From Candidatus Magasanikiibacteriota bacterium (GTDB taxonomy: Bacteria > Patescibacteriota > Patescibacteriia > Magasanikbacterales > UBA922): a stretch of DNA of 64,000 nt. Every line of letters begins with the position of its first letter. Position 1 is the stretch's first letter. This document shows positions 4,476 through 60,449 of this stretch, piece by piece. Location of the stretch: positions 1,559 to 65,558 of the forward strand of contig JBDRSF010000015.1 of NCBI GenBank assembly GCA_043825135.1. Direction: 5' to 3'. The translations under genes and the position numbers were made by a program. Under the pieces are notes generated by a model. That model had not been told where the DNA came from and made no database searches. It worked only from the letters and a program-made list of their open reading frames with translations.

Positions 4476-5030
4476 GTGGTAGAATTATATAACAAATTGT
4501 TTTTATTGTCAATTATAATTATTAACACTTTCTTCTGTATGTTTAAGAAAAAACCAAATTATAAAAAATTAATTATAGCTCTTCTTATTCCGCAATTAGC
4601 TGGATTTTTGGGTTCAATTGCTAATTTTACTTCGCTTGATATTTGGTATGAAGGAATAGTAAAACCAAGCTTTAATCCACCAAATTGGATTTTTGGTCCG
4701 GTTTGGACTACCTTGTTTTTATTAATGGGTATTGCACTATATTTAATATGGCAGAAAAAACCAAGGTGGGGGACGGACAAAAAAGTTAGTTTTGCTCTGC
4801 TTGCCTTTTATACTCAGCTTGGCTTTAATGTTATCTGGTCTTATTTGTTTTTTGGCTTACAAAATCCTTTGTTTGCCTTTGGAGAAATACTAGTATTGTG
4901 GGTTGCCATTGCTTTGAATATCATTCTTTTTTGGCGTCTGGACAAAAGGGCGGGTTTATTGCTTATTCCTTACATTTTGTGGGTAAGTTTTGCAGTTTTG
5001 CTAAATTATGCTATTTTTATGCTCAATTAA
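4476..5030 (+). CDS. tspO: TspO/MBR family tryptophan-rich sensory protein (true start probably an internal Met near 4539)
   Basis: Five TM helices; motifs WYEGIVKPSFNPPNWIFGPVWTTLFLLMGIALYLIW and C-terminal LLIPYILWVSFAVLLNYAI typical of TspO. Confidence 0.8.
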   Translation: MVELYNKLFLLSIIIINTFFCMFKKKPNYKKLIIALLIPQLAGFLGSIANFTSLDIWYEGIVKPSFNPPNWIFGPVWTTLFLLMGIALYLIWQKKPRWGTDKKVSFALLAFYTQLGFNVIWSYLFFGLQNPLFAFGEILVLWVAIALNIILFWRLDKRAGLLLIPYILWVSFAVLLNYAIFMLN

Positions 5031-9209: not shown

Positions 9210-9253
9210 TAAAATAAATTACCTACTGAGATATCTCAGTAGGTAATTTATTA
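9210..9253. repeat. ~44-nt perfect palindrome with 20-bp core CTACTGAGATATCTCAGTAG (copy 1 of 3); probable bidirectional terminator/operator
   Basis: AATAAATTACCTACTGAGATATCTCAGTAGGTAATTTATT; core recurs at 18108-18127 and 58298-58317. Confidence 0.7.
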
Positions 9254-9258
9254 TTGAT

Positions 9259-9353
9259 GTGTCATTGCGAGCGTAGCGAAGCAATCCCATGCTTTGACGC
9301 TTTAAAGATTGGGATTGCTTCGCCCCGATGCGAATCGGTGCTCGCAATGACAC
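9259..9353. repeat. family A MITE-like element (compact copy)
   Basis: GTGTCATTGCGAGCGTAGCGAAGCAATCCC...GGGATTGCTTCGCCCCGATGCGAATCGGTGCTCGCAATGACAC. Confidence 0.7.
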
Positions 9354-9355
9354 AG

Positions 9356-11506
9356 TTAATCATACCTAATCACCCCACGTTCATTATTAACCCGATAATG
9401 CGCAATGGCTAGTTTTAATTTATGGTAATCAAATTTACCATTGAATCTGTTGTAAAGGATAGTTAACTTGTTTGGAATTCCGTTTGTTTTTATGTCTTCA
9501 AGAATTTTTTTCAAATCTGGTTTACTGATAAATTTGGCGATATCAATATCATAGCCTTTTTCATAAAGTTCTGCTAGGTGAGAATAAATAGTTTGTTCTT
9601 TTAGGTTTCTCTCTCGAGCAATTTGGGCGACGGGCATGCCTTTTTGATAATAAACATAAGTTAATTCTTGGGTGGTGCCTTGAGTTTTTTGACCCTCTTT
9701 GTCGCGGGCTTGTACAAAGTCAGCAATGGCAGTAATAAACAATTTACCATAAGTTTGAAATTTTTTGTCACCAACACCACTGATTTGTTTCATGGCTTTT
9801 TCAGTCATTGGTTTGTTATCAATCATCTGATTTAGGGTCGCATCATTAAATACTAGATAAGGTGGAATATTTTGTTTTTGTGCTAGACCTCTTCTTAGTT
9901 CACGCAAAATATCAAATAATTCTTCATCAGCAGTTTGGCGAGCTGATTTTGGTCGGGCTTCTTCGGTGCGTTCTTGTGCTCTTTGTTCAATAGATTGAAT
10001 AGTGACAAATTCAATTTTTTTGTTACCTAGCAAAACTTCTTTGCCAAGCGGAGTAATTTTTAAATTATAATTTTGATCATAGGCAATATCAACCAGGCCC
10101 ATGTTGAGCATTTGCAATAAATAATGTTGCCAGTCTGGTGGAGTAATATCTTTTCCAGCTCCGTAGGTTTTTATTTTATTAAAACCGCGTGTTAAAATTT
10201 CCTGCCGGTTTGATCCGCGCAAAATATCAATTAACAAATTAGTACCCACATTTTCATTTACCCGATAAATAGCTGACAAAGCTTTTTGTGCAATCTCTGT
10301 GCCATTCATTATTTCCGGAGGATTTTTGCAAACATCGCAGTTGCCACAATTATCTTCTTTATGTTCGCTAAAATATGATAATAAAATACGACGACGACAA
10401 ATAAGAGCATCGGCATATTGTTGCATGCGTTCTAGTTTAGCTAGTTGTAGAGTCGGCTGACCGCTTTCCATGGCAAATCTGCGTAGTAATATTACATCAG
10501 CCATGGTATAAAAAAGAATTGTTTCGCTTGGTAGACCGTCTCGTCCTGCACGCCCAATTTCTTGATAATAACCTTCTATGTTTTTTGGTAAATTATGATG
10601 AATGACAAAACGCACATTTGATTTATCAATTCCCATACCAAAAGCAATTGTTGCCACAATAATATTGGTTCGGCCGTGAATAAAATTTTCTTGAGTTTTT
10701 GATCTGGTGTGAGAATCAAGCCCAGCGTGATAATGTGAAGCTTTGATATTTTCTCGGTTTAAAGCCGAGGCAACTTTTTCGGTTTGCTTGCGACTAAGAC
10801 AATAAATAATGCCAGATTCATTTTTACGTTTTTTTATAAAATCAATAATAACATCCAAGCGTTTACGAGCCGGTAAAACTGTTAGGGATAAATTTGGTCG
10901 GTCAAATGAAGAGATGAAAATTTTGGGATTTCTTAAATGTAATTGGGTAACAATATCTTTGCGCGTAATTTTGTCAGCTGTGGCTGTGAGGGCGATGATA
11001 GGTGTTTTTGGAAACCTGTCTTTCAATTGTCCGAGCTGGGTATATTCCTGCCGAAAGTCATGACCCCAAGATGAAATACAATGTGCTTCATCAATGGCAA
11101 ATAAAGACACCTCAATTTGATTAAGTAAATTTTGAAAACTAGCCGTAACTAATTTTTCCGGTGATACATAGAGTAATTTTAATTCATTATTTAACAGCGC
11201 CTGTTCCACTTCGCGCGCTTCATCTTGTTCAAGTGAACTATTTAAAAAATTTGCCGCCACGCCATTTTCAATCAAGCCCTCAACCTGATCCTTCATCAAA
11301 GCAATAAGAGGGGATACTACGATTGTCACGCCCGGTAGAAGTGTGGCTGGTAATTGAAAACACAAAGACTTGCCCCCGCCGGTGGGCATCAAAACCAAAC
11401 AATCCTGACCTTCTAACACAGTCTCAACAATTTCTTTTTGATCAGACTGAAACTCATTAAAGCCAAAATTGTGTTTAAGTGATTTGTGGATTAGTTCTGG
11501 GGTCAT
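9356..11506 (-). CDS. recQ: ATP-dependent DNA helicase RecQ
   Basis: 716 aa; helicase motif I PTGGGKSLCFQLPA, motif II DEAHCISSWGHDFR, RQC zinc-binding Cys cluster, HRDC-like C-terminus. Confidence 0.9.
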   Translation of the reverse strand: MTPELIHKSLKHNFGFNEFQSDQKEIVETVLEGQDCLVLMPTGGGKSLCFQLPATLLPGVTIVVSPLIALMKDQVEGLIENGVAANFLNSSLEQDEAREVEQALLNNELKLLYVSPEKLVTASFQNLLNQIEVSLFAIDEAHCISSWGHDFRQEYTQLGQLKDRFPKTPIIALTATADKITRKDIVTQLHLRNPKIFISSFDRPNLSLTVLPARKRLDVIIDFIKKRKNESGIIYCLSRKQTEKVASALNRENIKASHYHAGLDSHTRSKTQENFIHGRTNIIVATIAFGMGIDKSNVRFVIHHNLPKNIEGYYQEIGRAGRDGLPSETILFYTMADVILLRRFAMESGQPTLQLAKLERMQQYADALICRRRILLSYFSEHKEDNCGNCDVCKNPPEIMNGTEIAQKALSAIYRVNENVGTNLLIDILRGSNRQEILTRGFNKIKTYGAGKDITPPDWQHYLLQMLNMGLVDIAYDQNYNLKITPLGKEVLLGNKKIEFVTIQSIEQRAQERTEEARPKSARQTADEELFDILRELRRGLAQKQNIPPYLVFNDATLNQMIDNKPMTEKAMKQISGVGDKKFQTYGKLFITAIADFVQARDKEGQKTQGTTQELTYVYYQKGMPVAQIARERNLKEQTIYSHLAELYEKGYDIDIAKFISKPDLKKILEDIKTNGIPNKLTILYNRFNGKFDYHKLKLAIAHYRVNNERGVIRYD

Positions 11507-13874: not shown

Positions 13875-13899
13875 AGACACTTTCTTAAGGTGTCTTTTT
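13875..13899 (+). terminator. rho-independent terminator
   Basis: AGACACTTTCTTAAGGTGTCTTTTT. Confidence 0.55.
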
Positions 13900-13945
13900 A
13901 TTTTATACTATAAAAAATAGTATATACTATTTTAATATCTGTAGG

Positions 13946-13975
13946 TTGACCAAAAGGGTTGGGAAGTGGTATGAT
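13946..13975 (+). promoter_or_regulatory. promoter TTGACC-18-TATGAT with conserved GGGAAGTGG spacer
   Basis: GGTTGACCAAAAGGGTTGGGAAGTGGTATGAT; near-identical spacer/-10 at 15525-15555. Confidence 0.45.
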
Positions 13976-14004
13976 AGATATATATAAAAAAATAAATTAA
14001 AACT

Positions 14005-15462: not shown

Positions 15463-15524
15463 ATTGTAAGGAATATTTTTTAATTTAGTACGTATAATAA
15501 TACGTACTATTTTTATTTACCTAG

Positions 15525-15555
15525 TTTGACTGGAGGGGTGGGGAAGTGGTATGAT
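15525..15555 (+). promoter_or_regulatory. promoter TTTGAC-19-TATGAT (GGGGAAGTGG spacer)
   Basis: TTTGACTGGAGGGGTGGGGAAGTGGTATGAT. Confidence 0.4.
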
Positions 15556-15572
15556 GGGTGTATAAAATAAAC

Positions 15573-17491: not shown

Positions 17492-18043
17492 ATGCCACAT
17501 GGTATTAGTTACAATATAAAAGAAAGCAAAAGGGCTAAGAGTGTGCGTGTTGTGGTAAATTGCGATGCCAATGTTTCTATTGTGACACCAAAAGGATTTG
17601 ATAAAAATCTGGTAGATGTTTTTATTGCCCAAAAAGAAGCGTGGATAAAAGAAAAGATAGAATATTTTAAATCTCGTAAAAAAATAGAAACACCAAAAAG
17701 TATTGTTCAGGGGAGTTATTATACCTGCAGTGCGCGGGCAAAAAAGATGATAAAGGAGCGGGTGGAATATTATAATTCTTTTTATAATTTCAAATATACT
17801 AGAATTAGCATAAAAAAACAAAGCACCAGATGGGGGAGTTGTTCGGGAAAGAAAAATTTAAATTTTAATTATAAGTTGTTATTTTTACCTCAGGAGATGG
17901 CTGATTATGTGGTGGTTCATGAGCTCTGTCATCTGCAGGAAATGAACCATTCAAAAAAGTTTTGGGATCTAGTTGCAAAAGTCTTTCCAGATTTTAAAGA
18001 GATTAGAAAAGAGATGAGGGGGATTGGGTTGTCCCGCCTTTAG
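17492..18043 (+). CDS. YgjP-like metal-dependent hydrolase (M48/DUF45 family)
   Basis: WGSCS...ADYVVVHELCHLQEMNHSKKFW; HExxH...H zinc signature of the YgjP family. Confidence 0.75.
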   Translation: MPHGISYNIKESKRAKSVRVVVNCDANVSIVTPKGFDKNLVDVFIAQKEAWIKEKIEYFKSRKKIETPKSIVQGSYYTCSARAKKMIKERVEYYNSFYNFKYTRISIKKQSTRWGSCSGKKNLNFNYKLLFLPQEMADYVVVHELCHLQEMNHSKKFWDLVAKVFPDFKEIRKEMRGIGLSRL

Positions 18044-18045
18044 CA

Positions 18046-18072
18046 GGGATCCCGCCCAAAGGCGGGATAGTT
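18046..18072 (+). terminator. hairpin CCCGCCCAAAGGCGGG (family F) after ygjP-like gene
   Basis: GGGATCCCGCCCAAAGGCGGGATAGTTTTAT; related hairpins at 22126-22150 and 57150-57195. Confidence 0.5.
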
Positions 18073-18093: not shown

Positions 18094-18129
18094 TGTTATA
18101 ATATGATCTACTGAGATATCTCAGTAGAT
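18094..18129 (+). promoter_or_regulatory. extended -10 (TGTTATAAT) followed 4 nt later by the 24-nt palindrome ATCTACTGAGATATCTCAGTAGAT
   Basis: Second copy of the CTACTGAGATATCTCAGTAG palindrome, here overlapping the predicted transcription start of the exonuclease gene. Confidence 0.5.
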
Positions 18130-18147
18130 AATTATTAATAAAATTTT

Positions 18148-18855
18148 ATGCCAATAATCATACTAGACACCGAAACAACTGATCGCGAAGAGAGTAAGCG
18201 TTTAATTCAGCTGGCTTACAAAAATTTGGAAACTGGGGAAGTGGTGAATGAGTATTTTAAACCGCCTGTGCCGATTACCTTTGGTGCTATGGCCGTGCAC
18301 CATGTGACAAATCAGATGGTGGCGGATAAAAAATCATTTGCTGATAGTGAACGTCGGGCAATTTTGACTGAGTTGTTGCCACAGAGTATTTTAGTGGCCC
18401 ATAACGCGCCATTTGATATTCAAGTTTTAAAAAATGAAGGTCTTGAAATTGGGCAAAGTTTAGATACTTTACGATTAGCTAGACACTTGTTTGAAAGTGA
18501 ACAATACAGCTTGCAGTTTTTGCGCTATTCTTTGGGATTAAATATTGATGCTTCGGCTCATGATGCTCTGGGAGATGTGTTGGTGTTGGAAGCCTTGTTT
18601 CATTATTTGAAAAATCAAGCGCAGGAACAATTTAAATTATCTAGCGAAGAAGAAGTGATTGCAAAATTATTAGAACTAAGTGCCATGCCGGTATTGATGA
18701 ATATTATTAATTTTGGGAAATATAAAGGAAAAACTTTTGAAGATGTTGTGAAGGAAGACAGGTCATATTTACAGTGGCTGTTCGGTAGTGAAACTAGTAA
18801 ACCCGAGACAGAGCAAAATGAGGAGATGGTTTATACTTTGAAGCATTGGCTCTAG
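18148..18855 (+). CDS. DEDDh 3'-5' exonuclease (DnaQ/epsilon-like)
   Basis: Exo I ILDTETTD, Exo II LVAHNAPFDIQVL, Exo III SAHDALGDVLV; extra C-terminal KYKGKTFEDV domain. Confidence 0.75.
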   Translation: MPIIILDTETTDREESKRLIQLAYKNLETGEVVNEYFKPPVPITFGAMAVHHVTNQMVADKKSFADSERRAILTELLPQSILVAHNAPFDIQVLKNEGLEIGQSLDTLRLARHLFESEQYSLQFLRYSLGLNIDASAHDALGDVLVLEALFHYLKNQAQEQFKLSSEEEVIAKLLELSAMPVLMNIINFGKYKGKTFEDVVKEDRSYLQWLFGSETSKPETEQNEEMVYTLKHWL

Positions 18856-18900
18856 CACGATACACGACTCACGACTCACATAACACGACACAATGACAGG
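18856..18900. repeat. short tandem repeats (CACGAC/CACATAA units)
   Basis: CACGATACACGACTCACGACTCACATAACACGACACAATGAC; related 14-mer array at 59289-59362. Confidence 0.5.
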
Positions 18901-18927
18901 CATTCTGAGTGAGGGTGTCTTTTGTTT

Positions 18928-19096
18928 GACCTCCCCTTGCTAAGGGGAGGAACACACGAGTTCGCCGTAGCTTTAGCGAAGGTGGACGAAGTGGGGTGGG
19001 GTCGGTTCGCGTAAATGCGATATTAAATATCCACAGACGAGACCCCCTAGCCCCTGATGCGAATCGGGGTGCATTCCCCCTTGGTAAGGGGGAACT
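18928..19096. repeat. family D MITE-like element, 'empty' copy (GACCTCCCCTTGCTAAGGGGAGGAACAC ... GATGCGAATCGGGGTGCATTCCCCCTTGGTAAGGGGGAAC)
   Basis: Same terminal hairpins flank the DUF559 gene at 33266-33745; internal GCTTTAGCGA and CCCCCTAGCC blocks shared with other families. Confidence 0.65.
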
Positions 19097-19198
19097 AAAC
19101 AACCATCACCACAAAGGAGGAGCTCAAGCAGTAAAATCGCTTTTTCTGGCGATTTTTGGTATACTGAATATAGTCAAATAAGTCTTAGTTATAATAAT

Positions 19199-19504
19199 AT
19201 GTCCAAAAAACCTTGGTTCATTGGTTTGGCACAGGCCTTGGGGGTAGTGATTTATTGTATTTTAGTTAGTGGGGTGTTTCAACTTATGCAAAAAGTAGAT
19301 GCTCAACCACCAGCGTTTTTTGCTGCGGCTTTTATGCTTTTGTTTTTAGTTTTCTCTGTCGCTACGGTTGGTTCTTTGGTATTTGGCTATTTTGCATATT
19401 TACTAGTTAATAAAAAAATTAAACCAGCTGTGCAAGTTTTGCTTTCAACTTTAGGATTTTGTTTGTTGTTTGTAATACTTATTATTAGTGTGTTGATGAT
19501 TTAA
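19199..19504 (+). CDS. small membrane protein (3 TM), hypothetical
   Basis: 101 aa, three hydrophobic helices. Confidence 0.5.
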   Translation: MSKKPWFIGLAQALGVVIYCILVSGVFQLMQKVDAQPPAFFAAAFMLLFLVFSVATVGSLVFGYFAYLLVNKKIKPAVQVLLSTLGFCLLFVILIISVLMI

Positions 19505-19518
19505 AAAAATATTAATTT

Positions 19519-20832
19519 ATGATAAAAAATACAACTAAAAAAAGGGAGACGATTTTTGATACCACTGATTTGGAAATAACTGAGGAAATAGAAAAAGCCT
19601 TGGAAATAATGGAGAATACACACGATACTGTGTATGTAACTGGAAAAGCGGGGACTGGGAAATCAACTTTACTAAAACATTTTTGTAATAATACGACAAA
19701 AAAAATCGCCATTGTGGCACCGACTGGGGTGGCGGCGATAAATGTGGGCGGAATGACAATTCATTCTTTTTTTAAATTTCCATTTGGAATTTTGGAAGAA
19801 GGTGATGTGGAGTTTTTGTTTTTCAAAAAGGAATTATTTGAAAATTTAGAAACATTAGTTATTGATGAAGTTTCAATGGTACGGGCAGATTTGATGAATG
19901 CGATTGATGTGTCACTGCGAAAAAATACTGGTAATAAAAATCTACCATTTGGCGGAGTGCAGGTGATTATGTTTGGTGATCTTTATCAGTTGCCACCAGT
20001 TGTGACTAGTATTGAGGAAAGGGATTATTTGCAAGAAAATTATGGTGGTTTGTATTTTTTTAATGCGCCAGTTTTTAAAGAAGTAAAACTTAGAAAAATT
20101 GATTTGAATAAAATCTTTCGTCAAAAGAATGATGAGATTTTTGTAAATGTTTTAAATAATATTAGAGAGTGTCGGGTTACTCAAACTGATTTGATGGCAT
20201 TAAATCAGCGGGTAAAAATTTATGATGAAAAATCAGGGCCAGCAATTGTGTTGGCAACGACAAATAATATTGTGGATTCCATAAATGAATCTGAGTTGAA
20301 AAAGATAAGGGAGAGAGAGTTTATATTTAAATATAATGCAAGCGGAGATTTTGATATAAAAAAATCCCCAGCTGAATTAAAATTAAAATTAAAAATTGGC
20401 GCGCAAGTAATGATGATAAAAAATGATAATCAAGTACCTAGGCGTTGGGCCAATGGTACCTTGGGGACAGTGGTCGGATTAAAAAAAGATAAAATTATTA
20501 TAAATATTGGCCGAGAGAATCATGCAATTGAAAAAGCGACTTGGGATGATTTTGAATATGAATATGATCGTGAACAGGAGACTGTGGAACGGTTTTCCAA
20601 AGGTTCGTTTATGCAATACCCAATCAAGTTAGCTTGGGCAGTGACAATCCACAAAAGCCAGGGCAAAACCTTTGAGCGAGTGATTATTGATCTTGGTCGC
20701 GGTGCTTTTGCTCATGGTCAAACCTATGTGGCGCTTAGTCGGTGTACTACGCTGAAGGAAATTTATATGAAAAAGCCAGTGCGATTATCTGATATTATTT
20801 TGGATCAGGAAGTGGTGGATTTTCATGCTTAG
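19519..20832 (+). CDS. Pif1/RecD-family (SF1B) DNA helicase
   Basis: Walker A TGKAGTGKSTLLK, Walker B LVIDEVSMV, FGDLYQLPPV, C-terminal TIHKSQGKTFERVIIDL and YVALSRCTTL (UvrD_C_2-like). Confidence 0.8.
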   Translation: MIKNTTKKRETIFDTTDLEITEEIEKALEIMENTHDTVYVTGKAGTGKSTLLKHFCNNTTKKIAIVAPTGVAAINVGGMTIHSFFKFPFGILEEGDVEFLFFKKELFENLETLVIDEVSMVRADLMNAIDVSLRKNTGNKNLPFGGVQVIMFGDLYQLPPVVTSIEERDYLQENYGGLYFFNAPVFKEVKLRKIDLNKIFRQKNDEIFVNVLNNIRECRVTQTDLMALNQRVKIYDEKSGPAIVLATTNNIVDSINESELKKIREREFIFKYNASGDFDIKKSPAELKLKLKIGAQVMMIKNDNQVPRRWANGTLGTVVGLKKDKIIINIGRENHAIEKATWDDFEYEYDREQETVERFSKGSFMQYPIKLAWAVTIHKSQGKTFERVIIDLGRGAFAHGQTYVALSRCTTLKEIYMKKPVRLSDIILDQEVVDFHA

Positions 20833-20852
20833 ATTTTTCTTATTTTATATTT

Positions 20853-21185
20853 ATGCGTATCTGGGACATTCATCCAAAATATTTATGTAGGAAGCATTTG
20901 CTAGCTGAACATCGTGAATTGCATGGGCTGTGGAATATTTTGACTAAACATAAAGCCAAGGGTGGTTATTCACGTCATCCTGAGACTTTGCGCTGGGTCG
21001 GCAAGACGCGAGCGCTTTTTGACAGGCACGAGGCGCTTACCAAGGAGTTTACCAGGCGTGGTTACAATCATCACACTCCACTTGATAAGAAATTAGCCAA
21101 AGGCAAAACCAAACAAGACGTTTTTGTTAATACTGTTGCCGAACAAAAAATTATTCTAAAAAATAAATCTTGTGATTGTTTTTAG
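20853..21185 (+). CDS. pyrimidine-dimer DNA glycosylase (T4 endonuclease V/DenV family)
   Basis: MRIWDIHPKYLCRKHLLAEHRELHGLW parallels T4 endoV LSELADQHLMAEHRELPRVF. Confidence 0.65.
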   Translation: MRIWDIHPKYLCRKHLLAEHRELHGLWNILTKHKAKGGYSRHPETLRWVGKTRALFDRHEALTKEFTRRGYNHHTPLDKKLAKGKTKQDVFVNTVAEQKIILKNKSCDCF

Positions 21186-21253
21186 TCTTTGTTTGGGGCA
21201 AAGTAATATTTATATATGTATTTAAAAAGTTTTTAATATGCTAAAATATAGTC

Positions 21254-21934
21254 ATGTTTGTCAATAAAAAAACAATTCATGATTTGCCGAGTTTCGAGCG
21301 TCCGCGAGAGAAATTGATTCATTATGGCCCAGAAAAATTAAGCACAACTGAACTCTTAGCCATTCTTTTGCGTTCCGGAAAAAAGGGAGAGAATGTTTTA
21401 ATAATGGCAGAAAAAATTATCAAGAAATTTTCCGAAAAGGGTTTGCAAAATGCTAATTTTGAAGAACTAAATTATTATTCCGGCCTAGGTCCGGCCAAGT
21501 CTTGTGAAATTATAGCTTGTTTTGAATTGGGACGACGATTTTTACAAAATAAAAAAGCGGTTTTGATTATGTCGCCGGAAGATGTGTGGGGGCAAATGGC
21601 TGATTTACGGGATAATAAAAAGGAACATTTCGTTGTTTTTTTTCTAGATATTCGCAATCAAAAAATAAAACGGCAAGTTGTGTCTATTGGTACGCTTAAT
21701 ACTAGTCTGGTACATCCTCGTGAAGTTTTTGAAGAAGCTATCCGCTATAACTCCGCTCAAATTATTGTGGCACACAATCATCCTTCAGGCGATACTGAGC
21801 CTTCGGATGAAGATTTACAAATTACTCACCGTCTCAAAAAAGCCGGAGAGATTTTGGGGATTGAATTACTGGATCATGTGATTGTGGCGGGGGAGGGATG
21901 GCTAAGTTTGAAGGAATCAAATAACTTGCTTTAA
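21254..21934 (+). CDS. radC: RadC-like JAB/MPN domain protein (UPF0758)
   Basis: Helix-hairpin-helix-like N-terminus; C-terminal JAMM motif HNHPSGDTEPSDEDLQITHRL. Confidence 0.8.
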   Translation: MFVNKKTIHDLPSFERPREKLIHYGPEKLSTTELLAILLRSGKKGENVLIMAEKIIKKFSEKGLQNANFEELNYYSGLGPAKSCEIIACFELGRRFLQNKKAVLIMSPEDVWGQMADLRDNKKEHFVVFFLDIRNQKIKRQVVSIGTLNTSLVHPREVFEEAIRYNSAQIIVAHNHPSGDTEPSDEDLQITHRLKKAGEILGIELLDHVIVAGEGWLSLKESNNLL

Positions 21935-28213: not shown

Positions 28214-28222
28214 ATAATCAAT

Positions 28223-28259
28223 ATCTATACATATATTTATACATGTATCTATATATAAA
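28223..28259 (+). promoter_or_regulatory. 37-bp cis element ATCTATACATATATTTATACATGTATCTATATATAAA (copy 1), ends 3 nt before the AbrB-like gene start
   Basis: Identical 37-mer recurs at 29641-29677 immediately upstream of the 29683 operon; contains dyad ATACATGTAT. Confidence 0.6.
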
Positions 28260-28262
28260 CAT

Positions 28263-28436
28263 ATGCGAAAAATAATAAATAGACAAATAAGAAAAATATT
28301 TAAATCTGGACCAAGTTATGTTATCACTTTACCAGTTGAATTAGTCCAAGAGCTCAAGTGGAAAGAAAGACAAAAATTGGAATTGGTGATTGATGAGAAG
28401 AATCAGACGATTAAAATTAGTGATTGGAAGGAATAA
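28263..28436 (+). CDS. AbrB/MazE/SpoVT-family DNA-binding protein (57 aa)
   Basis: SGPSYVITLPVELVQELKWKERQKLELVIDEKNQTIKI is a swapped-hairpin AbrB-like domain; below ORF-track cutoff; terminator 28453-28478 follows. Confidence 0.6.
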   Translation: MRKIINRQIRKIFKSGPSYVITLPVELVQELKWKERQKLELVIDEKNQTIKISDWKE

Positions 28437-29635: not shown

Positions 29636-29640
29636 AACAA

Positions 29641-29677
29641 TATCTATACATATATTTATACATGTATCTATATATAA
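29641..29677 (+). promoter_or_regulatory. 37-bp cis element (copy 2) immediately upstream of the 29683-32648 operon
   Basis: Identical to 28223-28259. Confidence 0.6.
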
Positions 29678-29682
29678 AAAAT

Positions 29683-45526: not shown

Positions 45527-45535
45527 AATACAATT

Positions 45536-45586
45536 ACGTATTTAAATACGTAATTAAATACGTAATACATTACGTAATAAGTTTTC
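45536..45586 (+). promoter_or_regulatory. array of four TACGTA palindromes spaced ~12 bp
   Basis: ATTACGTATTTAAATACGTAATTAAATACGTAATACATTACGTAATAAG directly downstream of the -10. Confidence 0.4.
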
Positions 45587-45594
45587 AAGAAAAT

Positions 45595-45740
45595 GGTGCT
45601 CGTTGTTGGTTGGTTTTATCGTGCTTGAGGTCGGTAGGCACGATTACTGTCCAACAACGTTCCCGAGCTTCGCTCTGCTCCGTCGGGCAAGCTCTTCTAT
45701 CTTCTTGAGACAACCGTTATTTTTAAGGTTGTTTTTTAGT
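45595..45740 (+). ncRNA. candidate structured leader RNA/riboswitch-like element upstream of metK, ending in a terminator-like hairpin
   Basis: Long hairpin GCTCGTTGTTGG...CCAACAACG-ttcc-CGAGC with inner stem ATCGTGC/GCACGAT; terminal CAACC-GTTATTTTTAA-GGTTGTTTTTT; GC-richer than flanks, no ORF >11 codons; no canonical S-box seen. Confidence 0.3.
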
Positions 45741-45872: not shown

Positions 45873-47054
45873 ATGGAAAAACATTATTTTACCTCAGAAT
45901 CAGTTACCGAAGGACATCCGGACAAAATTTGTGATCAAATCTCTGATGGAGTTTTGGATGCAGTTTTAACAGATGATCCTGATGGGGCATGCTGTTGTGA
46001 GGTGTTTACTACGACTGGACTAGTCGTAGTTGGTGGAGAAATATCTACAAAAACTTATGTAGATATTCCAAAAATAGTTAGACAAACTTTGCAAGAAATT
46101 GGCTATACAGATGCTGATTATGGTATTGATTATAAATCTTGTGGTGTTATGGTTGCAGTTGATGAACAAAGTCAAGATATTGCCCAGGGTGAAAAAGAAG
46201 ATGCTGGTCATCCTCACCAAGCTCAAGGGGCAGGGGATCAGGGAATGATGTTTGGATTTGCTTGCAAAGAAACTCCAGAGTTGATGCCACTGCCAATTAT
46301 GTTGGCCCATGGTCTGACTCGCAAATTGGCAGAAGTTAGAAAAAATAAAACTTTAGGTTATTTACGTCCTGATGGCAAATCACAGGTTACAGTTGAATAT
46401 ATTGATGGAAAACCCGTTAGGGCTGATGCGGTTGTAATTGCTGCTCAACATAATCCAGAGATTGAATTATCACAATTGCGTGAAGATATTTTACGCGAAG
46501 TTATCAAGCCAGTTTGTGGGGAATATTTAGATGAGAATACCAAATTTTATATCAATGAAACTGGAAGATTCGTCGTTGGTGGTCCACAGGGAGACACTGG
46601 TGTGACTGGCAGGAAAATCATTGTAGATACTTATGGTGGAAAAGGCAGACATGGTGGCGGAGCATTTTCTGGCAAAGTACCAAACAAGCAAGACAGATCT
46701 GGCGCCTACATGGCACGTTATATTGCAAAAAATATTGTAGCAGCTGATTTGGCAGACGAGTGCGAAGTTCAATTGTCCTATGCCATCGGTTATCCCGAAC
46801 CAACCAGTGTTTTAGTAGATACTTTTGGAGCTGGAAAAGTTGATAGTGAAAAATTAACCAAAGCAGTTAGAGAGGTATTTGATCTCACTCCAGCTGGTAT
46901 TATTAAAACTCTTGATTTAAAGCGTCCTATTTATAAAGCTACTGCTTCTTACGGACATTTTGGTCGTGAAGTGGTTGGTTCAGATGTTGGCGAATTGTTT
47001 ACATGGGAGAAGATTGATAAGGTTGAGGATCTGAAAAGCAGATTAAGTATGTAG
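45873..47054 (+). CDS. metK: S-adenosylmethionine synthetase
   Basis: [38 protein letters not shown] motifs; terminator 47079-47107 follows. Confidence 0.93.
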
Positions 47055-52549: not shown

Positions 52550-52730
52550 CTGTCATTCCGACCGAAACCCCGATGAAATACGGGGTGGAGTGGAGGAATC
52601 CCTTTTCTTTACACTATATTTAGTATTAAATAAAATTTTCCTTGATGCATTTGTTGGTGCATTAAAAAGGGATCCCTGCGCCACCGCTAAAGCTTTAGCG
52701 ACACGCGGTCGACTACGCTCGGGATGACAA
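52550..52730. repeat. family B MITE-like element (second full copy)
   Basis: CCTGTCATTCCGACCGAAACCCCGATGAAATACGGGGTGGAGTGGAGGAATCCCTTTTC...GGGATCCCTGCGCCACCGCTAAAGCTTTAGCGACACGCGGTCGACTACGCTCGGGATGACAAC. Confidence 0.75.
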
Positions 52731-52775
52731 CGGAAACATATATCCACAGCGTAAAATGACCTGTAAAGGTCATCG

Positions 52776-57851: not shown

Positions 57852-57903
57852 TATTTGTGTGTTGGGAACCGTCCTCCTCCCAAAATGGACGGTTCCGAGT
57901 TTG

Positions 57904-58164
57904 TCAGCGTACGCTTCTCAGAAGCTTTCGCAAGGCGGGTTTTAGGTCTAGATCTACTAATGGATAACCCTTTTGAATTGGTCGTAGAACATGGGCGATC
58001 ACCACATATTCATTACCGCGACTCATGGTTTGGAAGGTGGCACCAGCTTTTTTTGCTGAATTCGCAATTTCGGTTGCTATTTCGGGCTTATCTCCTTCCT
58101 CTAGAAGAAAAGCTCTCTTTACGCCTTTTACCTGAAATTCTCTACTCGCTTCAACAATCATCAT
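57904..58164 (-). CDS. hypothetical small protein (86 aa) in a GC-richer segment
   Basis: Convergent with the SPFH gene across a bidirectional terminator; SD AAGGGG upstream; preferred over the overlapping + strand ORF 57855-58193. Confidence 0.35.
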   Translation of the reverse strand: MMIVEASREFQVKGVKRAFLLEEGDKPEIATEIANSAKKAGATFQTMSRGNEYVVIAHVLRPIQKGYPLVDLDLKPALRKLLRSVR

Positions 58165-58295
58165 CTTTTGATTATCCCCTTGTTTATGTTTAAGTATTTA
58201 CTGACTATGTGGAGGATAACATAAAAAAAATTAAAAATCAAATTTTAGTCGTCCATATTCCCCCAGAGGTGGGCAGACATGGTATGGTCTAAGTT

Positions 58296-58317
58296 ATCTA
58301 CTGAAATATCTCAGTAG
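58296..58317. repeat. third copy of the CTACTGAGATATCTCAGTAG palindrome (one mismatch)
   Basis: ATCTACTGAAATATCTCAGTAGGT, preceded by a -10-like TGGTATGGT. Confidence 0.6.
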
Positions 58318-58345
58318 GTAAAGTGGTAGTATTTATCCACAGTTT

Positions 58346-58357
58346 TTAGCACTTGAC
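58346..58357 (+). promoter_or_regulatory. CIRCE half-site-like TTAGCACTTGAC
   Basis: Duplicate of the left arm of the CIRCE-like element at 58481. Confidence 0.3.
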
Positions 58358-58448
58358 CCCGCCTAATATCCTCTCTAGCTCGCTGTGGCTTCGCTATGTA
58401 GCGATATTAAGCGGGGCAGGCCCCGCCAATAGGATAGCCTCGCCACTA

Positions 58449-58507
58449 TAATGAGGTAGGCATTTTTCATTGTGGATAACTTAGCACTTGACATGTCAGA
58501 GTGATAA
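58449..58507 (+). promoter_or_regulatory. -10 (TATAAT) plus CIRCE-like HrcA operator TTAGCACTT-N9-GAGTGATAA upstream of hrcA
   Basis: Canonical CIRCE is TTAGCACTC-N9-GAGTGCTAA; here TTAGCACTTGACATGTCAGAGTGATAA, with a further GAGTGCTAG right arm at 58524. Confidence 0.6.
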
Positions 58508-58607
58508 TGGTAGAATTATCACTGTAAATGATAGAGTGCTAGCATTGATTCAAACTGATTTATACAGATTTGAGCAAAATCTGTTTTAATCTGTCTTAAT
58601 CAATGCT

Positions 58608-59285
58608 ATGAATAGTCGTCAAGAGCAACTCCTAAAATTAGTCGTAGAGTCATATATAGAGAGGGCTGAACCAGTTGGGTCTAATTTTTTGGTGGAAAAT
58701 ACTGATTTGGGAGTGAGTGGGGCGACTATTAGAAATGAAATGAGAGAGTTGGAAGAACAAGGTTACTTGACTCATCCTCATACTTCTTCTGGGCGTATTC
58801 CGACAGAGCTGGGATATCGTCACTATGTAGAAAATTTGATGAATCCTGTTAATATTAAAGATAGTCATAAAGAAGAAATTCAAATTTGTTTTTCAAGTGC
58901 AGAAGGGAAGCAGGCAGTAAAAAACATTGCCAAATACATTGCTGAAAAAACAAATAATGCAGTAATAGTTGCGTTTGGTACAGATGCTTTGTATTACACT
59001 GGCATGAGCCAACTGTTTACCCAGCCAGAATTTCGCGATTATGCTTTTATGGTTAAAGCTTCTACTATTTTTGATCAATGTGAGGAAAGAATTGAAGAGA
59101 TTATTGATTTGTTTGTTGATAAAGAACCAAAAGTCTTGATAGGGGCTGACAATCCTTTTGGGCAGATGACTAGTATGGTTGGTGTTCGGATTGGGGAAGT
59201 ATTTTTTACTATTTTGGGTCCCATGAGAATGGATTATAGTAAGGCCTATTCTTTTGTGGATTATTTACGGGGCGAGGTTAGATAA
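58608..59285 (+). CDS. hrcA: heat-inducible transcription repressor HrcA (short form)
   Basis: N-terminal winged helix EPVGSNFLVENTDLGVSGATIRNEMRELEEQGYLTHPHTSSGRIPTELGYRHYV; 225 aa, shorter than typical HrcA. Confidence 0.8.
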   Translation: MNSRQEQLLKLVVESYIERAEPVGSNFLVENTDLGVSGATIRNEMRELEEQGYLTHPHTSSGRIPTELGYRHYVENLMNPVNIKDSHKEEIQICFSSAEGKQAVKNIAKYIAEKTNNAVIVAFGTDALYYTGMSQLFTQPEFRDYAFMVKASTIFDQCEERIEEIIDLFVDKEPKVLIGADNPFGQMTSMVGVRIGEVFFTILGPMRMDYSKAYSFVDYLRGEVR

Positions 59286-59288
59286 CAA

Positions 59289-59362
59289 AAATCACGTAAC
59301 ACATAACATTATACACGTAACACATAACACGTAACACATAACACGTAACACGTAACAAATTT
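59289..59362. repeat. tandem array of ~14-nt units (CACGTAACACATAA) x4-5
   Basis: ATCACGTAACACATAACATTATACACGTAACACATAACACGTAACACATAACACGTAACACGTAACAAA directly upstream of the Nudix-grpE ORF. Confidence 0.65.
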
Positions 59363-59363
59363 T

Positions 59364-60254
59364 ATGACAGAAGAAAAAAAATATCCAAGTTTGACTGTTG
59401 GTGTTTATATTTTTAACAAAAAGGGAGAAATGTTTTTGATGAGAGCTCCCCATTGGTCTGATAAGTTAGTTATACCTGGCGGGCATGTTGATTATGGTGA
59501 ATCGGTAAGTAATACGGTAATAAGAGAGACGAAAGAGGAAACTGGTTTAGATGTTGAGAATTTAGATTTTTTAAAAGTAGAGGAAATAAAAGATTCAAAA
59601 GATTATACAAAAAATAAACATATTGTTTCTCTAGCTTACAAAGCAACACTCAAAGATGATAAACAAGAACCAAAATTGGACGGCAGAGAGGCGACAGAGT
59701 TCTTTTGGATTAAGCCTAAAGATATCTTGAAAAGAGATGATATTGAAGAGCATACTTACAATGCTACTGAAGAATTATTTGTAAAGAAAAAGAAAAGAGG
59801 TTTTTTAAAAAAATGTAAAAATTGTGAAAAAACCGATGAATATAAATCAGGTTGGGCACGAGCGCAGGCAGATTATCAGAATTTGGTAAAAGAGACTGAA
59901 AAGAAACGAAGTGAGTGGGCGGAATATTCAGAAAGACAGATTTTGGAAGAGTTTATTCCAGTATATGACAATTTCAAGACAGCTTTCAGTCATCAGACTT
60001 CAGACTCCAGCCCCGAATTGGATAATTGGAAGAAAGGAATTGAATATATTATGAAGCAATTTAATAAAGTTTTAGAAGATCACGGTGTGATAGAAATTAG
60101 AACAGTTGGAGAAATTTTTGATCCTGAGCGTTACGAAGCAGTTAGCGAAGAAGAAAGTGATGAAGAATCCGGTAAGATTATCAGAGAGATGGTGTCTGGA
60201 TATGAGATGAGAGGGAAAGTTATTCGCGTGGCGAAAGTAGTAGTAAGTAAATAA
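59364..60254 (+). CDS. grpE: NUDIX hydrolase - GrpE fusion protein
   Basis: Residues 1-140 carry a Nudix box GGHVDYGESVSNTVIRETKEETGL; residues ~165-296 are GrpE-like (ILEEFIPVYDNF..., GVIEIRTVGEIFDPERYEAV..., KVIRVAKVVV); one continuous ORF. Confidence 0.7.
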   Translation: MTEEKKYPSLTVGVYIFNKKGEMFLMRAPHWSDKLVIPGGHVDYGESVSNTVIRETKEETGLDVENLDFLKVEEIKDSKDYTKNKHIVSLAYKATLKDDKQEPKLDGREATEFFWIKPKDILKRDDIEEHTYNATEELFVKKKKRGFLKKCKNCEKTDEYKSGWARAQADYQNLVKETEKKRSEWAEYSERQILEEFIPVYDNFKTAFSHQTSDSSPELDNWKKGIEYIMKQFNKVLEDHGVIEIRTVGEIFDPERYEAVSEEESDEESGKIIREMVSGYEMRGKVIRVAKVVVSK

Positions 60255-60264
60255 TTTTAAAACC

Positions 60265-60381
60265 AGTCATTGCGAGGAATGCGTAGCAATGACGAAGCAA
60301 TCCCATCCATAAATACCACTGCTAGTGTATTAAAGACTGGGATTGCCACGTCCCGATGCGAATCGGGACTCGCAATGACAC
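60265..60381. repeat. family A MITE-like element (copy 3) upstream of hsp20
   Basis: AGTCATTGCGAGGAATGCGTAGCAATGACGAAGCAATCCC...GGGATTGCCACGTCCCGATGCGAATCGGGACTCGCAATGACAC. Confidence 0.7.
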
Positions 60382-60449
60382 AAAAACAATTTCAAATTGT
60401 AAATTAATACCCACGGGGCATCAGTGTCCCCTGATAATTCAAAAAAAAT

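What the first reader, a model, noticed from the sequence alone, without database searches (positions are those of the whole stretch)
9210..9253. Perfect 20-44-nt palindrome CTACTGAGATATCTCAGTAG recurs three times next to -10-like hexamers
Copies at 9223-9242 (embedded in a 44-nt perfect palindrome), 18108-18127 and 58298-58317 each lie 4-10 nt downstream of an AT-rich -10-like element (TAAAAT, TGTTATAAT, TGGTATGGT). The position is operator-like rather than simply terminator-like. One copy also sits between convergent genes, where it could act as a bidirectional terminator.
Basis: seen in the sequence. Interest (0 to 1): 0.5.

Follow-up and report, generated by a model that had tools for sequence, protein, structure and literature searches.

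The report
Operator for a small AbrB-type regulator
The repeated palindrome is most likely the DNA binding site of a small AbrB-type regulatory protein found in many ultra-small (Patescibacteria/CPR) bacteria; it sits at a DNA-repair promoter, upstream of the heat-shock operon, and at the tip of a transcription terminator.

Summary
The repeat is real and not chance, with two corrections. The third copy has one mismatch. The long perfect palindrome at copy 1 is 40 nt, not 44.

The 20-mer is the core of a 24-bp site, ATCTACTGAGAT|ATCTCAGTAGAT, made of two 12-bp units. Exact copies occur in about 83 distinct contexts in public DNA, almost all in low-GC Patescibacteria-like contigs.

The commonest neighbouring gene encodes a ~62-aa SpoVT/AbrB-fold protein that starts 13-53 nt downstream of the site. 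In the reverse test, all 11 homologues chosen by protein alone have an array of 12-bp units upstream. Four carry the window's motif. The others carry variants that track changes in one loop of the protein.

- Copy 2 lies 5 nt after an extended -10 and 20 nt before an exoX-like DNA-repair operon, so it is in an operator position.
- Copy 3 lies upstream of the CIRCE-controlled hrcA-grpE-dnaK promoter, as in three other genomes.
- Copy 1 caps a bidirectional terminator hairpin.

About a third of all sites look like terminators yet keep the flanking bases expected for protein binding. The cognate regulator gene is not in the window, but a 91-98% identical relative has it. This is a new member of a known kind, and no binding has been tested.

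The parts
9213..9252 (.). Copy 1: a 40-nt perfect palindrome whose apex is the 20-mer (9223-9242; 24-mer ACCTACTGAGATATCTCAGTAGGT at 9221-9244). It lies between the 3' ends of a 170-aa putative lipoprotein gene with no Pfam match (stop 9189, +) and recQ (stop 9356, -). It is a terminator-class site.
   Evidence: extension 10. RNA hairpin of -24.6 / -24.1 kcal/mol on the two strands, z -9.5 / -8.8. T-rich tails of 5/7 and 6/7. Near-identical extended stems sit next to tRNA genes in L025 and L107.
18106..18129 (.). Copy 2: a perfect 24-bp palindrome, ATCTACTGAGAT|ATCTCAGTAGAT, made of two complete 12-bp units. It is in an operator position over the predicted transcription start.
   Evidence: It is the only place in the window with two full ATCT[AC][AC][GT][GT]AGAT units (0.11 expected). 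The 18-mer core is conserved in orthologous loci L100 and L076, which are about 80-84% identical.
18094..18102 (+). Extended -10 element TGTTATAAT, 5 nt upstream of the 20-mer of copy 2.
   Evidence: Across 83 sites, strong -10 elements concentrate at gaps of 4-6 nt.
18148..21934 (+). Putative regulated operon: an ExoX-like 3'-5' exonuclease (18148-18855), a 101-aa ORF with no Pfam match, a PIF1 helicase, a pyrimidine-dimer glycosylase (Pyr_excise) and RadC.
   Evidence: In relative L110 the site sits at the head of a longer ygjP...exoX operon instead.
58296..58319 (.). Copy 3: ATCTACTGAAATATCTCAGTAGGT (20-mer 58298-58317, one mismatch), upstream of the hrcA promoter.
   Evidence: The exact 20-mer occupies the same position upstream of CIRCE/hrcA in L041, L061/L081 and L090, where the flanks have otherwise diverged.
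58481..58516 (+). CIRCE (TTAGCACTT-N9-GAGTGATAA, 58481-58507) overlapping the TTGACA-17-TAGAAT promoter of hrcA-grpE-dnaK (hrcA 58608-59285).
28263..28436 (+). The only member of the regulator family encoded in the window. It is a 57-aa paralogue (type 2: MRKIINRQIRKIFKSGPSYVITLP...) with its own, different upstream boxes, so it is probably not the cognate binder of the 20-mer.
   Evidence: PF04014, 30.5 bits; E 1e-22; no other hit in the window.

Best explanation
The 20-mer is the core of a 24-26-bp double-stranded DNA operator, TAT-CTACTGAGATATCTCAGTAG-ATA. The operator is built from two abutting 12-bp units of the form ATCT-N4-AGAT, with half-sites ATCTAC and ATCTCA.

The protein that binds it is a ~62-aa single-domain SpoVT/AbrB (swapped-hairpin) protein, consensus MKTRRK..E.NIRKITK.AGGSSY.ITLPI..IRR..W.ERQKV. 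It is widespread in Patescibacteria and has no partner toxin. By analogy with AbrB, MazE and VapB, one dimer would sit on each 12-bp unit, which makes a dimer of dimers on the 24-mer.

- At its own gene and at copy 2, the site begins 4-6 nt after the -10 hexamer. Bound protein would therefore occlude RNA polymerase at the transcription start and repress. At copy 2 this would repress the exoX-pif1-pyrimidine-dimer glycosylase-radC repair operon.
- At copy 3 the site lies upstream of the CIRCE-controlled hrcA-grpE-dnaK promoter. The direction of its effect there is unknown.
- At copy 1 the same site forms the tip of a long A/T-flanked hairpin that works as a bidirectional intrinsic terminator. 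The protein-contact flanks are kept, so it is probably still bound.

Shown here: the sequence family, its genomic association with the regulator gene, the co-variation between protein and boxes, and the positional statistics. Inferred: the binding itself, the stoichiometry and the sign of regulation. The cognate regulator gene is not in this 64-kb window.
For: (1) Neighbour ORFs around 82 distinct sites were clustered without prior assumptions. The top recurring neighbour was the small protein, starting 13-53 nt downstream of the site in L017, L020, L031, L035, L037, L060 and L065. About 0.2 such cases would be expected by chance.

(2) Reverse test. Eleven homologues were chosen by protein sequence only, and all have a 12-bp-period array within 75 nt upstream of the start codon.
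- P0045 has the exact 20-mer.
- P0020 has one mismatch plus an extra CTACGTAG unit.
- P0055 has CTACTGAGAT|ATCTACATAGAT|ATCTCAGTAGAT.
- P0061 has ATCTACGTAGAT|ATCTCAGTAG.
- The others carry variants: GTCTACGTAGAC, CTACGTAGAT, ATCTCATGAGAT x3 (in two proteins), CTAGAGAGATATCTCTCTAG, ATGTACGTAAAC|ATTTACGTACAT, and AATTACAGCATT x3.

(3) The box type tracks the loop between strands 1 and 2 of the protein. [AG]GG[SA]S goes with CTACTGAG/CTACGTAG boxes in 11 of 11 cases. ASG[SQ]S goes with CTCATGAG in 2 of 2. GRESS, AKHS, SGGKS and SGPS each go with their own box.

(4) The protein scores 24-35 bits against PF04014 (cut-off 24.7), above the cut-off for three of the four tested, including the window's paralogue. 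The AlphaFold2 model has pLDDT 85. The top Foldseek hits are SpoVT, the AbrB N-domain (including its DNA-bound form), Sso7c4, MazE and VapB.

(5) Flanking positions that were not part of the search pattern are conserved: -2 is A in 87% and -1 is T or C in 98% of half-flanks. In terminator-class sites these figures are 57/58 and 58/58, against a background A frequency of 31%.

(6) Direct-repeat units such as L022, L096 and L083, and self-palindromic single units, cannot form one RNA hairpin. This argues for recognition of duplex DNA.

(7) Strong -10 elements are enriched 4-6 nt upstream of the site.

(8) The position is conserved upstream of hrcA in 4 genomes and at the ygjP/exoX cluster in 4 loci.

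(9) L060, which is 91-98% identical in nucleotide sequence to parts of the window, carries the type-1 regulator with TATAAT-5 nt-site-24 nt-ATG.
Against: - No binding experiment exists.
- The window has no type-1 regulator gene, so the presence of the binder in this genome is only inferred from relatives.
- Genes next to the sites are functionally heterogeneous, so no coherent regulon emerges beyond the regulator itself, hrcA and the repair cluster.
- Thirteen sites lie between convergent genes and 29 of 83 have T-tracts. A plain repressor-operator model does not predict this.
- Copy 3 is not at a canonical repression position.
- PDB sequence matches and Foldseek E-values are weak (0.04-0.2) because the domain is tiny.
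Confidence: 0.7

Rival explanations
1. The copies are plain intrinsic terminators or RNA-stabilising hairpins with no specific protein partner. The sequence recurs only because it makes a good stem-loop.
For: Copy 1 folds at -24.6 kcal/mol with U-rich tails on both strands. The scan flags copy 2 as terminator-like. Many sites lie less than 35 nt after a stop codon, and convergent contexts outnumber divergent ones 13 to 4. T-tracts are enriched 41/166 against 12/166 in the control. The basal stems co-vary between loci.
Against: A structure-only element has no reason to keep 20-24 identical bases, loop included, across Saccharibacteria, Paceibacterota, Parcubacteria and other lineages. It also would not keep A and Y at positions -2 and -1 while the rest of the stem varies. 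Fifty-four of 83 sites have no T-tract. Direct-repeat units and single 12-bp units cannot fold into one hairpin. The link to the regulator gene and the -10 spacing are left unexplained. In L041 a canonical terminator immediately precedes the site.
Confidence: 0.08
2. The AbrB-like protein, or another factor, recognises the transcribed hairpin as RNA. It would act at the 5' ends of leaders and the 3' ends of messages to control attenuation, termination or stability.
For: With the -10 element 4-6 nt upstream, the hairpin would be the first thing transcribed. The same element also sits at 3' ends. A perfect palindrome gives the same hairpin on either strand.
Against: From general knowledge, the swapped-hairpin fold is a duplex-DNA binder in all characterised members. 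The closest structures found here are AbrB, SpoVT, MazE, VapB and Sso7c4. Variant operators such as ATCTCATGAGAT x3 and AATTACAGCATT x3 would form only trivial RNA stems. The arrays have a 12-bp period made of direct and inverted units.
Confidence: 0.1
3. The palindrome is a REP-like or MITE-like mobile repeat spread by an IS200/RAYT-type Y1 transposase. The GTAG/CTAC tetranucleotides recall REP elements.
For: L009 has an IS200-like Y1_Tnp gene 92 nt from a site. In MAG Bin_050 the two sites share a longer flank. The extended 40-nt version of copy 1 recurs next to tRNA genes in L025 and L107. Sites tend to lie in intergenic regions at 3' ends.
Against: The Y1 transposase is next to 1 of 82 sites and does not recur in the neighbour clustering. 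Beyond 24-26 bp the flanks are unrelated in most loci. The position is conserved in orthologous loci. The 20-mer has no hits in 2.9 million viral contigs.
Confidence: 0.05
4. The palindrome is a divergent LexA/SOS box (compare E. coli TACTG-N10-CAGTA) controlling DNA-damage genes such as exoX, or alternatively a DNA-uptake sequence.
For: The arms TACTG/CAGTA are identical to the E. coli SOS-box arms (consensus CTGT-N8-ACAG, PMC8565304). Copy 2 heads a repair operon, and copy 1 lies next to recQ. From general knowledge, uptake sequences often pair up inside terminators.
Against: The spacer is 8 nt, not 10. No lexA or recA gene is among the recurring neighbours. The Patescibacteria LexA motif is cited as a direct-repeat motif (PMC7739468; the original paper is not held). 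Copy 1 is at the 3' end of recQ. The density of 3 per 64 kb is far below that of uptake sequences, which is about 1 per kb from general knowledge. The box variants co-vary with the AbrB-type protein.
Confidence: 0.03

Closest known systems
AbrB / Abh / SpoVT transition-state regulators of Bacillus (SpoVT-AbrB swapped-hairpin DNA-binding domain)
   Same: The domain is the same (PF04014). The predicted fold is closest to SpoVT 2w1t and the AbrB N-domain 1yfb/2k1n. The predicted mode is a dimer-of-dimers repressor sitting over promoters, including its own.
   Different: The protein is only about 62 aa. It has a basic N-terminal tail and no C-terminal multimerisation or GAF domain. From general knowledge, AbrB has no sharp consensus site, whereas this protein would have a near-invariant 24-bp palindrome of 12-bp units. 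The family is restricted to CPR lineages in the hits obtained. Some sites are embedded in terminators.
AbrB-fold type II antitoxins (MazE, VapB, PrlF), which autoregulate through palindromic operators
   Same: These are also small AbrB-fold proteins that bind inverted repeats overlapping their own promoter. JGI labels some homologues 'antitoxin component of YhaV-PrlF'.
   Different: No conserved toxin gene follows the regulator. The downstream genes vary: an FAD oxidoreductase, VIT1, IF-1, EamA, NUDIX, RadC-methylase, and convergent ClpB or RmuC. The protein has no C-terminal toxin-binding tail. Its sites also occur at unrelated genes.
Sso7c4 and other archaeal or viral AbrB-like small DNA-binding proteins (PDB 5itj, 5itm, 2l66; C68/C56)
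   Same: These are the best sequence-level PDB matches (E 0.04). They are the same size, about 50-60 aa, and are stand-alone single-domain proteins.
   Different: The entries describe Sso7c4 as histone-like. The protein here is tied to one specific operator sequence.
MetJ met-boxes and MraZ repeat operators (arrays of short units bound cooperatively)
   Same: The operator is a tandem array of 2-4 short units, here 12 bp each. Each unit is presumably bound by one dimer, and the number of units varies between promoters.
   Different: MetJ has a different fold (ribbon-helix-helix). The unit length, period and sequence differ. The comparison rests on general knowledge and was not tested here.
HrcA/CIRCE
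   Same: It is also a long palindrome that is nearly invariant across phyla, and it lies upstream of the same hrcA-grpE-dnaK operon.
   Different: CIRCE is a separate element, present at 58481-58507. The 20-mer lies upstream of it and has a different sequence.

Membership tests
SpoVT/AbrB-type transcription factor with its operator | The associated protein carries the SpoVT-AbrB (MazE_antitoxin, PF04014) domain. | tested here: met
   scores of 30.1, 34.7 and 30.5 bits against a cut-off of 24.7; one member scores 23.8. PF04014 is precomputed for most of the 62 homologues.
SpoVT/AbrB-type transcription factor with its operator | The protein has the swapped-hairpin beta-barrel fold. | tested here: met
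   The AlphaFold2 model has pLDDT 85 with a beta-beta-alpha-beta-beta layout. Sixteen of the top 17 and 19 of the top 20 Foldseek PDB hits are SpoVT, AbrB-N, Sso7c4, MazE, VapB or viral AbrB-like C56/C68 proteins, with TM about 0.5-0.64 and probability up to 1.0. E-values are only 0.2-1 because the domain is small.
SpoVT/AbrB-type transcription factor with its operator | The operator lies at the regulator's own promoter (autoregulation). | tested here: met
   Seven motif-selected and 11 protein-selected loci have the site or a variant array 3-75 nt upstream of the start codon. A -10 element lies 4-6 nt upstream of the site in L060, L123 and L037.
SpoVT/AbrB-type transcription factor with its operator | The protein physically binds the 24-mer. 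| not testable with these tools
   This needs EMSA, DAP-seq or a reporter assay.
SpoVT/AbrB-type transcription factor with its operator | The cognate regulator is encoded in the same genome as the window's three sites. | tested here: inconclusive
   The window has only the type-2 paralogue. The type-1 gene is present in L060, which is 91-98% identical to window segments. The rest of the genome is not available.
Type II toxin-antitoxin operator (MazE/VapB/PrlF) | A cognate toxin gene lies adjacent, in the same operon. | tested here: not met
   The downstream genes differ in every locus and none is a MazF, PIN, YhaV or Doc family member.
Rho-independent (intrinsic) terminator | A stable stem-loop is followed by a U-tract just downstream of a gene's 3' end. 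| tested here: met
   This holds for copy 1 only: -24.6 / -24.1 kcal/mol, starting 23 nt after the stop at 9189, with T-rich tails of 5/7 and 6/7. Copy 2 is flagged by the consensus scan but sits 20 nt before an ATG. Copy 3 has no T-tract.
REP element with RAYT | A Y1 (IS200-like) transposase gene is associated and flanked by the repeats. | tested here: not met
   This is seen at only 1 of 82 sites (L009) and does not recur in the neighbour clustering.
LexA SOS box | The site matches a known LexA motif and lies upstream of lexA, recA or translesion-polymerase genes. | tested here: not met
   The site is TACTG-N8-CAGTA, whereas E. coli has CTGT-N8-ACAG, i.e. TACTG-N10-CAGTA. No lexA or recA gene is among the neighbours. 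The Patescibacteria motif is cited as a direct repeat.
DNA uptake sequence (DUS/USS) | The sequence is highly over-represented, at about one copy per kb of genome. | tested here: not met
   There are 3 copies in 64 kb. Each 9-20-kb locus that encodes the regulator together with this motif holds one site.
Known RNA families (Rfam 15) | The sequence scores at or above a family's gathering threshold. | tested here: not met
   The whole window yields only tRNAs. Around the copies, only generic hairpin hits appear, far below threshold.

The most novel reading that the evidence does not exclude
A Patescibacteria-wide family of minimal AbrB-fold regulators uses modular 12-bp-unit operators whose specificity is set by one loop of the protein. 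The main type-1 operator would have been co-opted as the conserved tip of bidirectional intrinsic terminators. Occupancy by the regulator would then tune both initiation (at its own gene, the exoX repair operon and hrcA-dnaK) and termination or read-through at gene ends. This would amount to a protein-gated terminator network in genomes that have very few transcription factors.
Probability: 0.2. Interest if true: 0.7.

Novelty: new member of a known kind. Interest (0 to 1): 0.5.

Why it matters
Very little is known about transcription regulation in Patescibacteria/CPR. In the held literature I found only LexA work, nothing linking AbrB-type proteins to these lineages, and no occurrence of the 20-mer itself.

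This finding pairs a compact protein family with a precisely defined DNA site. The family comprises 144 clusters at 50% identity with E<=1e-10 and 459 with E<=1e-3. The data also give a readable co-variation between one protein loop and the box sequence, which makes a specificity code directly testable in vitro.

The site links the heat-shock operon and a DNA-repair operon to a second regulator besides HrcA. It also raises the question of why about a third of the sites are built into terminators.

Tried and rejected
- **SOS/LexA box.** I was attracted by the TACTG/CAGTA arms and the repair genes at copy 2. I rejected it on spacing, on the absence of lexA or recA neighbours, and on the heterogeneous flanking genes. 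The key Patescibacteria LexA paper (PMID 28618189) is not held.
- **parS-like centromere.** The window has no canonical parS. The motif's link to promoters and to the regulator explains it better.
- **REP/RAYT element.** Only one adjacent Y1 transposase was found, in L009.
- **Phage or mobile origin.** The 20-mer has no hits in viral contigs.
- **Known RNA family.** None was found.
- **The 86-aa minus-strand ORF (57904-58164) as the autoregulated binder.** It has no Pfam domain and no homologue in any other locus.
- **The neighbouring GGTATGGTC palindrome (L084, L090) as a shared second motif.** It is absent from the window as a palindrome.
- **Finding the window's own genome to look for the type-1 regulator.** Only a 10-kb Logan contig that duplicates the window was found.
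- **Measuring T-tracts after maximal palindrome extension.** This was misleading, because A-runs and T-runs pair with each other and become part of the stem. I redid it with fixed windows.

Full report
**1. The observation**

The 20-mer CTACTGAGATATCTCAGTAG is exact at 9223-9242 and 18108-18127. At 58298-58317 it reads CTACTGAAATATCTCAGTAG, with one mismatch, so that copy is not a perfect palindrome. Shuffled sequence gives no match even with 3 mismatches allowed. The next best match in the window has 7 mismatches. The perfect palindrome around copy 1 is 40 nt (9213-9252), not 44 (extension of 10 per side).

The window has about 35% GC, almost all genes are on the + strand, and the gene content is typical of Patescibacteria.

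**2. Local context**

- Copy 1 lies between the 3' ends of a 170-aa gene (stop 9189) and recQ (stop 9356). A GC-rich inverted-repeat element separates it from recQ.
- Copy 2 lies 5 nt after TGTTATAAT and 20 nt before the ATG of an ExoX-like exonuclease. That gene is followed by a PIF1 helicase, a pyrimidine-dimer glycosylase and RadC.
- Copy 3 lies about 290 nt before hrcA-grpE-dnaK. The operon's real promoter, TTGACA-17-TAGAAT, overlaps a CIRCE element at 58481-58507.

**3. Distribution elsewhere**

A scan of one genome per species found 23 loci. Fourteen of them have exactly GAGATATCTC at the centre. Most carry Patescibacteria, Saccharibacteria, Parcubacteria, Paceibacterota or Kazan labels, and the rest are generic or Gammaproteobacteria-labelled low-GC MAGs.

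A metagenome scan for the 18-mer gave 96 more loci. Two unrelated classes were set aside: a human-gut locus with GCGCT...AGCGC flanks, and long inverted repeats from termite gut. That leaves 83 distinct contexts.

Positions outside the search pattern are conserved: -1 is T (72%) or C (26%), -2 is A (87%) and -3 is T (72%). The site is therefore TAT-CTACTGAGATATCTCAGTAG-ATA, which reads as two 12-bp units, ATCTACTGAGAT|ATCTCAGTAGAT.

Many loci add further units at a 12-nt period. These are CTACGTAG, CTACATAG, or a repeated CTCAGTAG or CTACTGAG, placed as direct repeats as well as inverted ones. One hairpin cannot accommodate such arrays.

**4. What is next to the sites**

The flanking genes are functionally mixed. 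They include SIMPL, pilins, enolase, TsaD, rpoC, a P-type ATPase and tRNA synthetases. There is no simple regulon.

An all-against-all clustering of the neighbour ORFs gave one clear leader. It is a ~62-aa protein, MKTRRK..E.NIRKITK.AGGSSY.ITLPI..IRR..WKERQKV, that starts 13-53 nt downstream of the site in seven loci.

This protein matches PF04014 (SpoVT-AbrB/MazE), above the cut-off for three of the four proteins tested. Its AlphaFold2 model has pLDDT 85 and is closest to SpoVT, the AbrB N-domain, Sso7c4, MazE and VapB (PDB sequence search).

The second recurring neighbour is hrcA-grpE. The exact 20-mer lies upstream of CIRCE and the hrcA promoter in L041, L061/L081 and L090 as well as in the window, among flanks that have otherwise diverged.

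**5. Reverse test**

I chose homologues by protein sequence only (62 found) and fetched their contigs. All 11 proteins examined have a 12-bp-period array within 75 nt upstream of the start codon.

Four carry the window's motif:
- P0045 has the exact 20-mer, 20 nt before the ATG.
- P0020 has TGTGATATAAT-ttat-CTACTGAGgTATCTCAGTAG-ATATCTACGTAG.
- P0055 has three units.
- P0061 has ATCTACGTAGAT|ATCTCAGTAG.

The others carry variants: GTCTACGTAGAC, CTACGTAGAT, ATCTCATGAGAT x3 (two proteins), CTAGAGAGATATCTCTCTAG, ATGTACGTAAAC|ATTTACGTACAT, and AATTACAGCATT x3.

The box type follows the loop between the first two strands of the protein. [AG]GG[SA]S goes with CTACTGAG/CTACGTAG boxes in 11 of 11 cases. 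ASG[SQ]S goes with CTCATGAG in 2 of 2 cases. GRESS, AKHS, SGGKS and SGPS each have their own box. Co-variation of this kind is expected for a regulator and its operator.

No toxin gene follows these genes, so they are not antitoxins.

The family is compact but diverse. It has 144 clusters at 50% identity with E<=1e-10 and 459 with E<=1e-3, among 1.84 billion representatives.

**6. Promoter-class and terminator-class sites**

Strong -10 elements (TATAAT, or TGn-extended) are concentrated 4-6 nt upstream of the 20-mer. Eight of 17 such elements fall in 3 of 54 distance bins, where about 0.9 would be expected. They include window copy 2, L060, L110, L123 and L037. The predicted transcription start therefore falls on the first bases of the site, which is a classical occlusion position.

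Other features point to terminators:
- Convergent contexts outnumber divergent ones 13 to 4, and many sites lie less than 35 nt after a stop codon or a tRNA gene.
- The stems are often extended by sequences that differ between loci but stay complementary.
- T-rich tracts follow the hairpin in 41 of 166 oriented flanks, against 12 of 166 in a control window. Twelve sites have them on both sides, 17 on one side and 54 on neither.
- Copy 1 belongs to this class, at -24.6 / -24.1 kcal/mol.

Even in the terminator class, the flanks keep A at -2 in 57 of 58 half-flanks and a pyrimidine at -1 in 58 of 58. The protein-recognition consensus is therefore retained there. I take this as evidence that terminator-class sites are still binding sites. 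Why they are built into terminators is not explained.

**7. The window's own regulator gene**

The only family member in the window is a 57-aa paralogue at 28263-28436. Its DNA-binding half differs (KSGPSY loop), and it has different upstream boxes of the ATCTATA type. The 41-nt box segment at 28219-28259 is repeated exactly at 29638-29678.

Locus L060 is 91-98% identical to several window segments. It carries a type-1 regulator with TATAAT-5 nt-site-24 nt-ATG and also has type-2 boxes. Close relatives therefore have both types. The window's genome probably encodes type 1 outside these 64 kb, but this is not shown.

In relative L110 the site heads a ygjP...exoX operon instead of sitting directly before exoX. 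In L100 and L076 it sits before exoX, with the 18-mer intact and the immediate flanks changed.

**8. Alternatives**

I considered and rate as unlikely the following: a pure terminator, an RNA-level target, a REP/RAYT element, a LexA box, an uptake sequence, parS, a phage element and a known RNA family. The reasons are given under the rival explanations and under what was tried and rejected.

**9. Verdict**

The finding is real. Its best reading is the operator of a small, orphan AbrB-fold regulator family of Patescibacteria.
- Copy 2 is a promoter-overlapping operator of a DNA-repair operon.
- Copy 3 is a conserved upstream site of the heat-shock operon.
- Copy 1 is an operator-tipped bidirectional terminator.

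The mechanism is classical, so this is a new member of a known kind. The protein-operator pair, its apparent specificity code and its use inside terminators do not appear in the literature I could search. Binding, stoichiometry and the sign of regulation are inferred, not shown.

Noticed in passing
window 28219-28259 and 29638-29678; gene 28263-28436 (+): An exact 41-nt repeat, CAATATCTATACATATATTTATACATGTATCTATATATAAA, precedes both the 57-aa AbrB-type paralogue and the 319-aa gene at 29662. It is probably that paralogue's own operator. Similar ATCTATATA direct repeats precede its orthologue in L110 and the 29662 homologue in L060.
   Followed up: partly
window 58346-58492: The 12-nt TTAGCACTTGAC (left arm of CIRCE plus the -35) occurs twice, at 58346-58357 and 58481-58492, flanking a GC-rich 123-nt segment. 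L041 has the uninterrupted arrangement. It looks like an insertion of a GC-rich element into the hrcA control region with a target duplication.
   Followed up: partly
window 9254-9356, 60330-60382, 41019-41097, 52665-52743, 18020-18070: Families of GC-rich inverted-repeat elements (for example TGTCATTGCGAGC...GCTCGCAATGACA, 89-91% identical copies) sit in AT-rich intergenic regions, often beside the palindrome copies. They are MITE-like, and their nature was not studied.
   Followed up: no
window 45530-45585: An array of ATTACGTA/TACGTAAT boxes lies upstream of a metK-like gene (45873-47054, [12 protein letters not shown] motif). It resembles the TACGTA-type operator upstream of the AbrB-type homologue P0039 (L128). 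A GC-rich structured stretch at 45590-45700 follows, with no Rfam hit at gathering threshold.
   Followed up: no
window 59283-59366 and 18856-18892: Tandem 14-nt repeats, CACGTAACACATAA, lie between hrcA and grpE. A related CACGA-rich repeat follows the exoX-like gene.
   Followed up: no
window 13896-13991 and 15476-15571: A 96-nt promoter module is duplicated at 71% identity. It has an upstream TAGTAC/GTACTA-type palindrome followed by TTGAC-N18-TATGAT with a TG extension. TAGTAC-type palindromes also occur beside the 20-mer in L038, L051, L057 and L065.
   Followed up: no
window 59364-60254: GrpE is fused to an N-terminal NUDIX domain. The same fusion is seen in L041.
   Followed up: no
L084 1378-1403, L090 about 4930-4990, window 58274-58292: A second palindrome, GACCATACCATGGTATGGTC (or repeated TAGTATGGTCTA), abuts the 20-mer in two relatives. 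The window keeps only ...ACATGGTATGGTCTAA.
   Followed up: partly
window 57904-58164 (-): An 86-aa ORF has a good ribosome-binding site and its own terminator hairpin (57860-57900), but no Pfam domain and no homologue in any fetched locus.
   Followed up: partly
L021 1995-2014 (same as L078), Kazan genome CP011216: One exact 20-mer lies inside the coding region of methionyl-tRNA formyltransferase, in the linker between the N and C domains, where it encodes LLRYLSRY. This may be chance or an intragenic site.
   Followed up: no
L030, L040, L042, L068, L069, L085, L104, L105; and L033, L066, L092, L093, L101 and others: The 18-mer also occurs outside Patescibacteria-like DNA. One case is a conserved human-gut locus, GCGCT-18mer-AGCGC, at about 47% GC. 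The other is at the centre of long inverted repeats in termite-gut metagenomes. Neither has the C...G / AT flanks.
   Followed up: no
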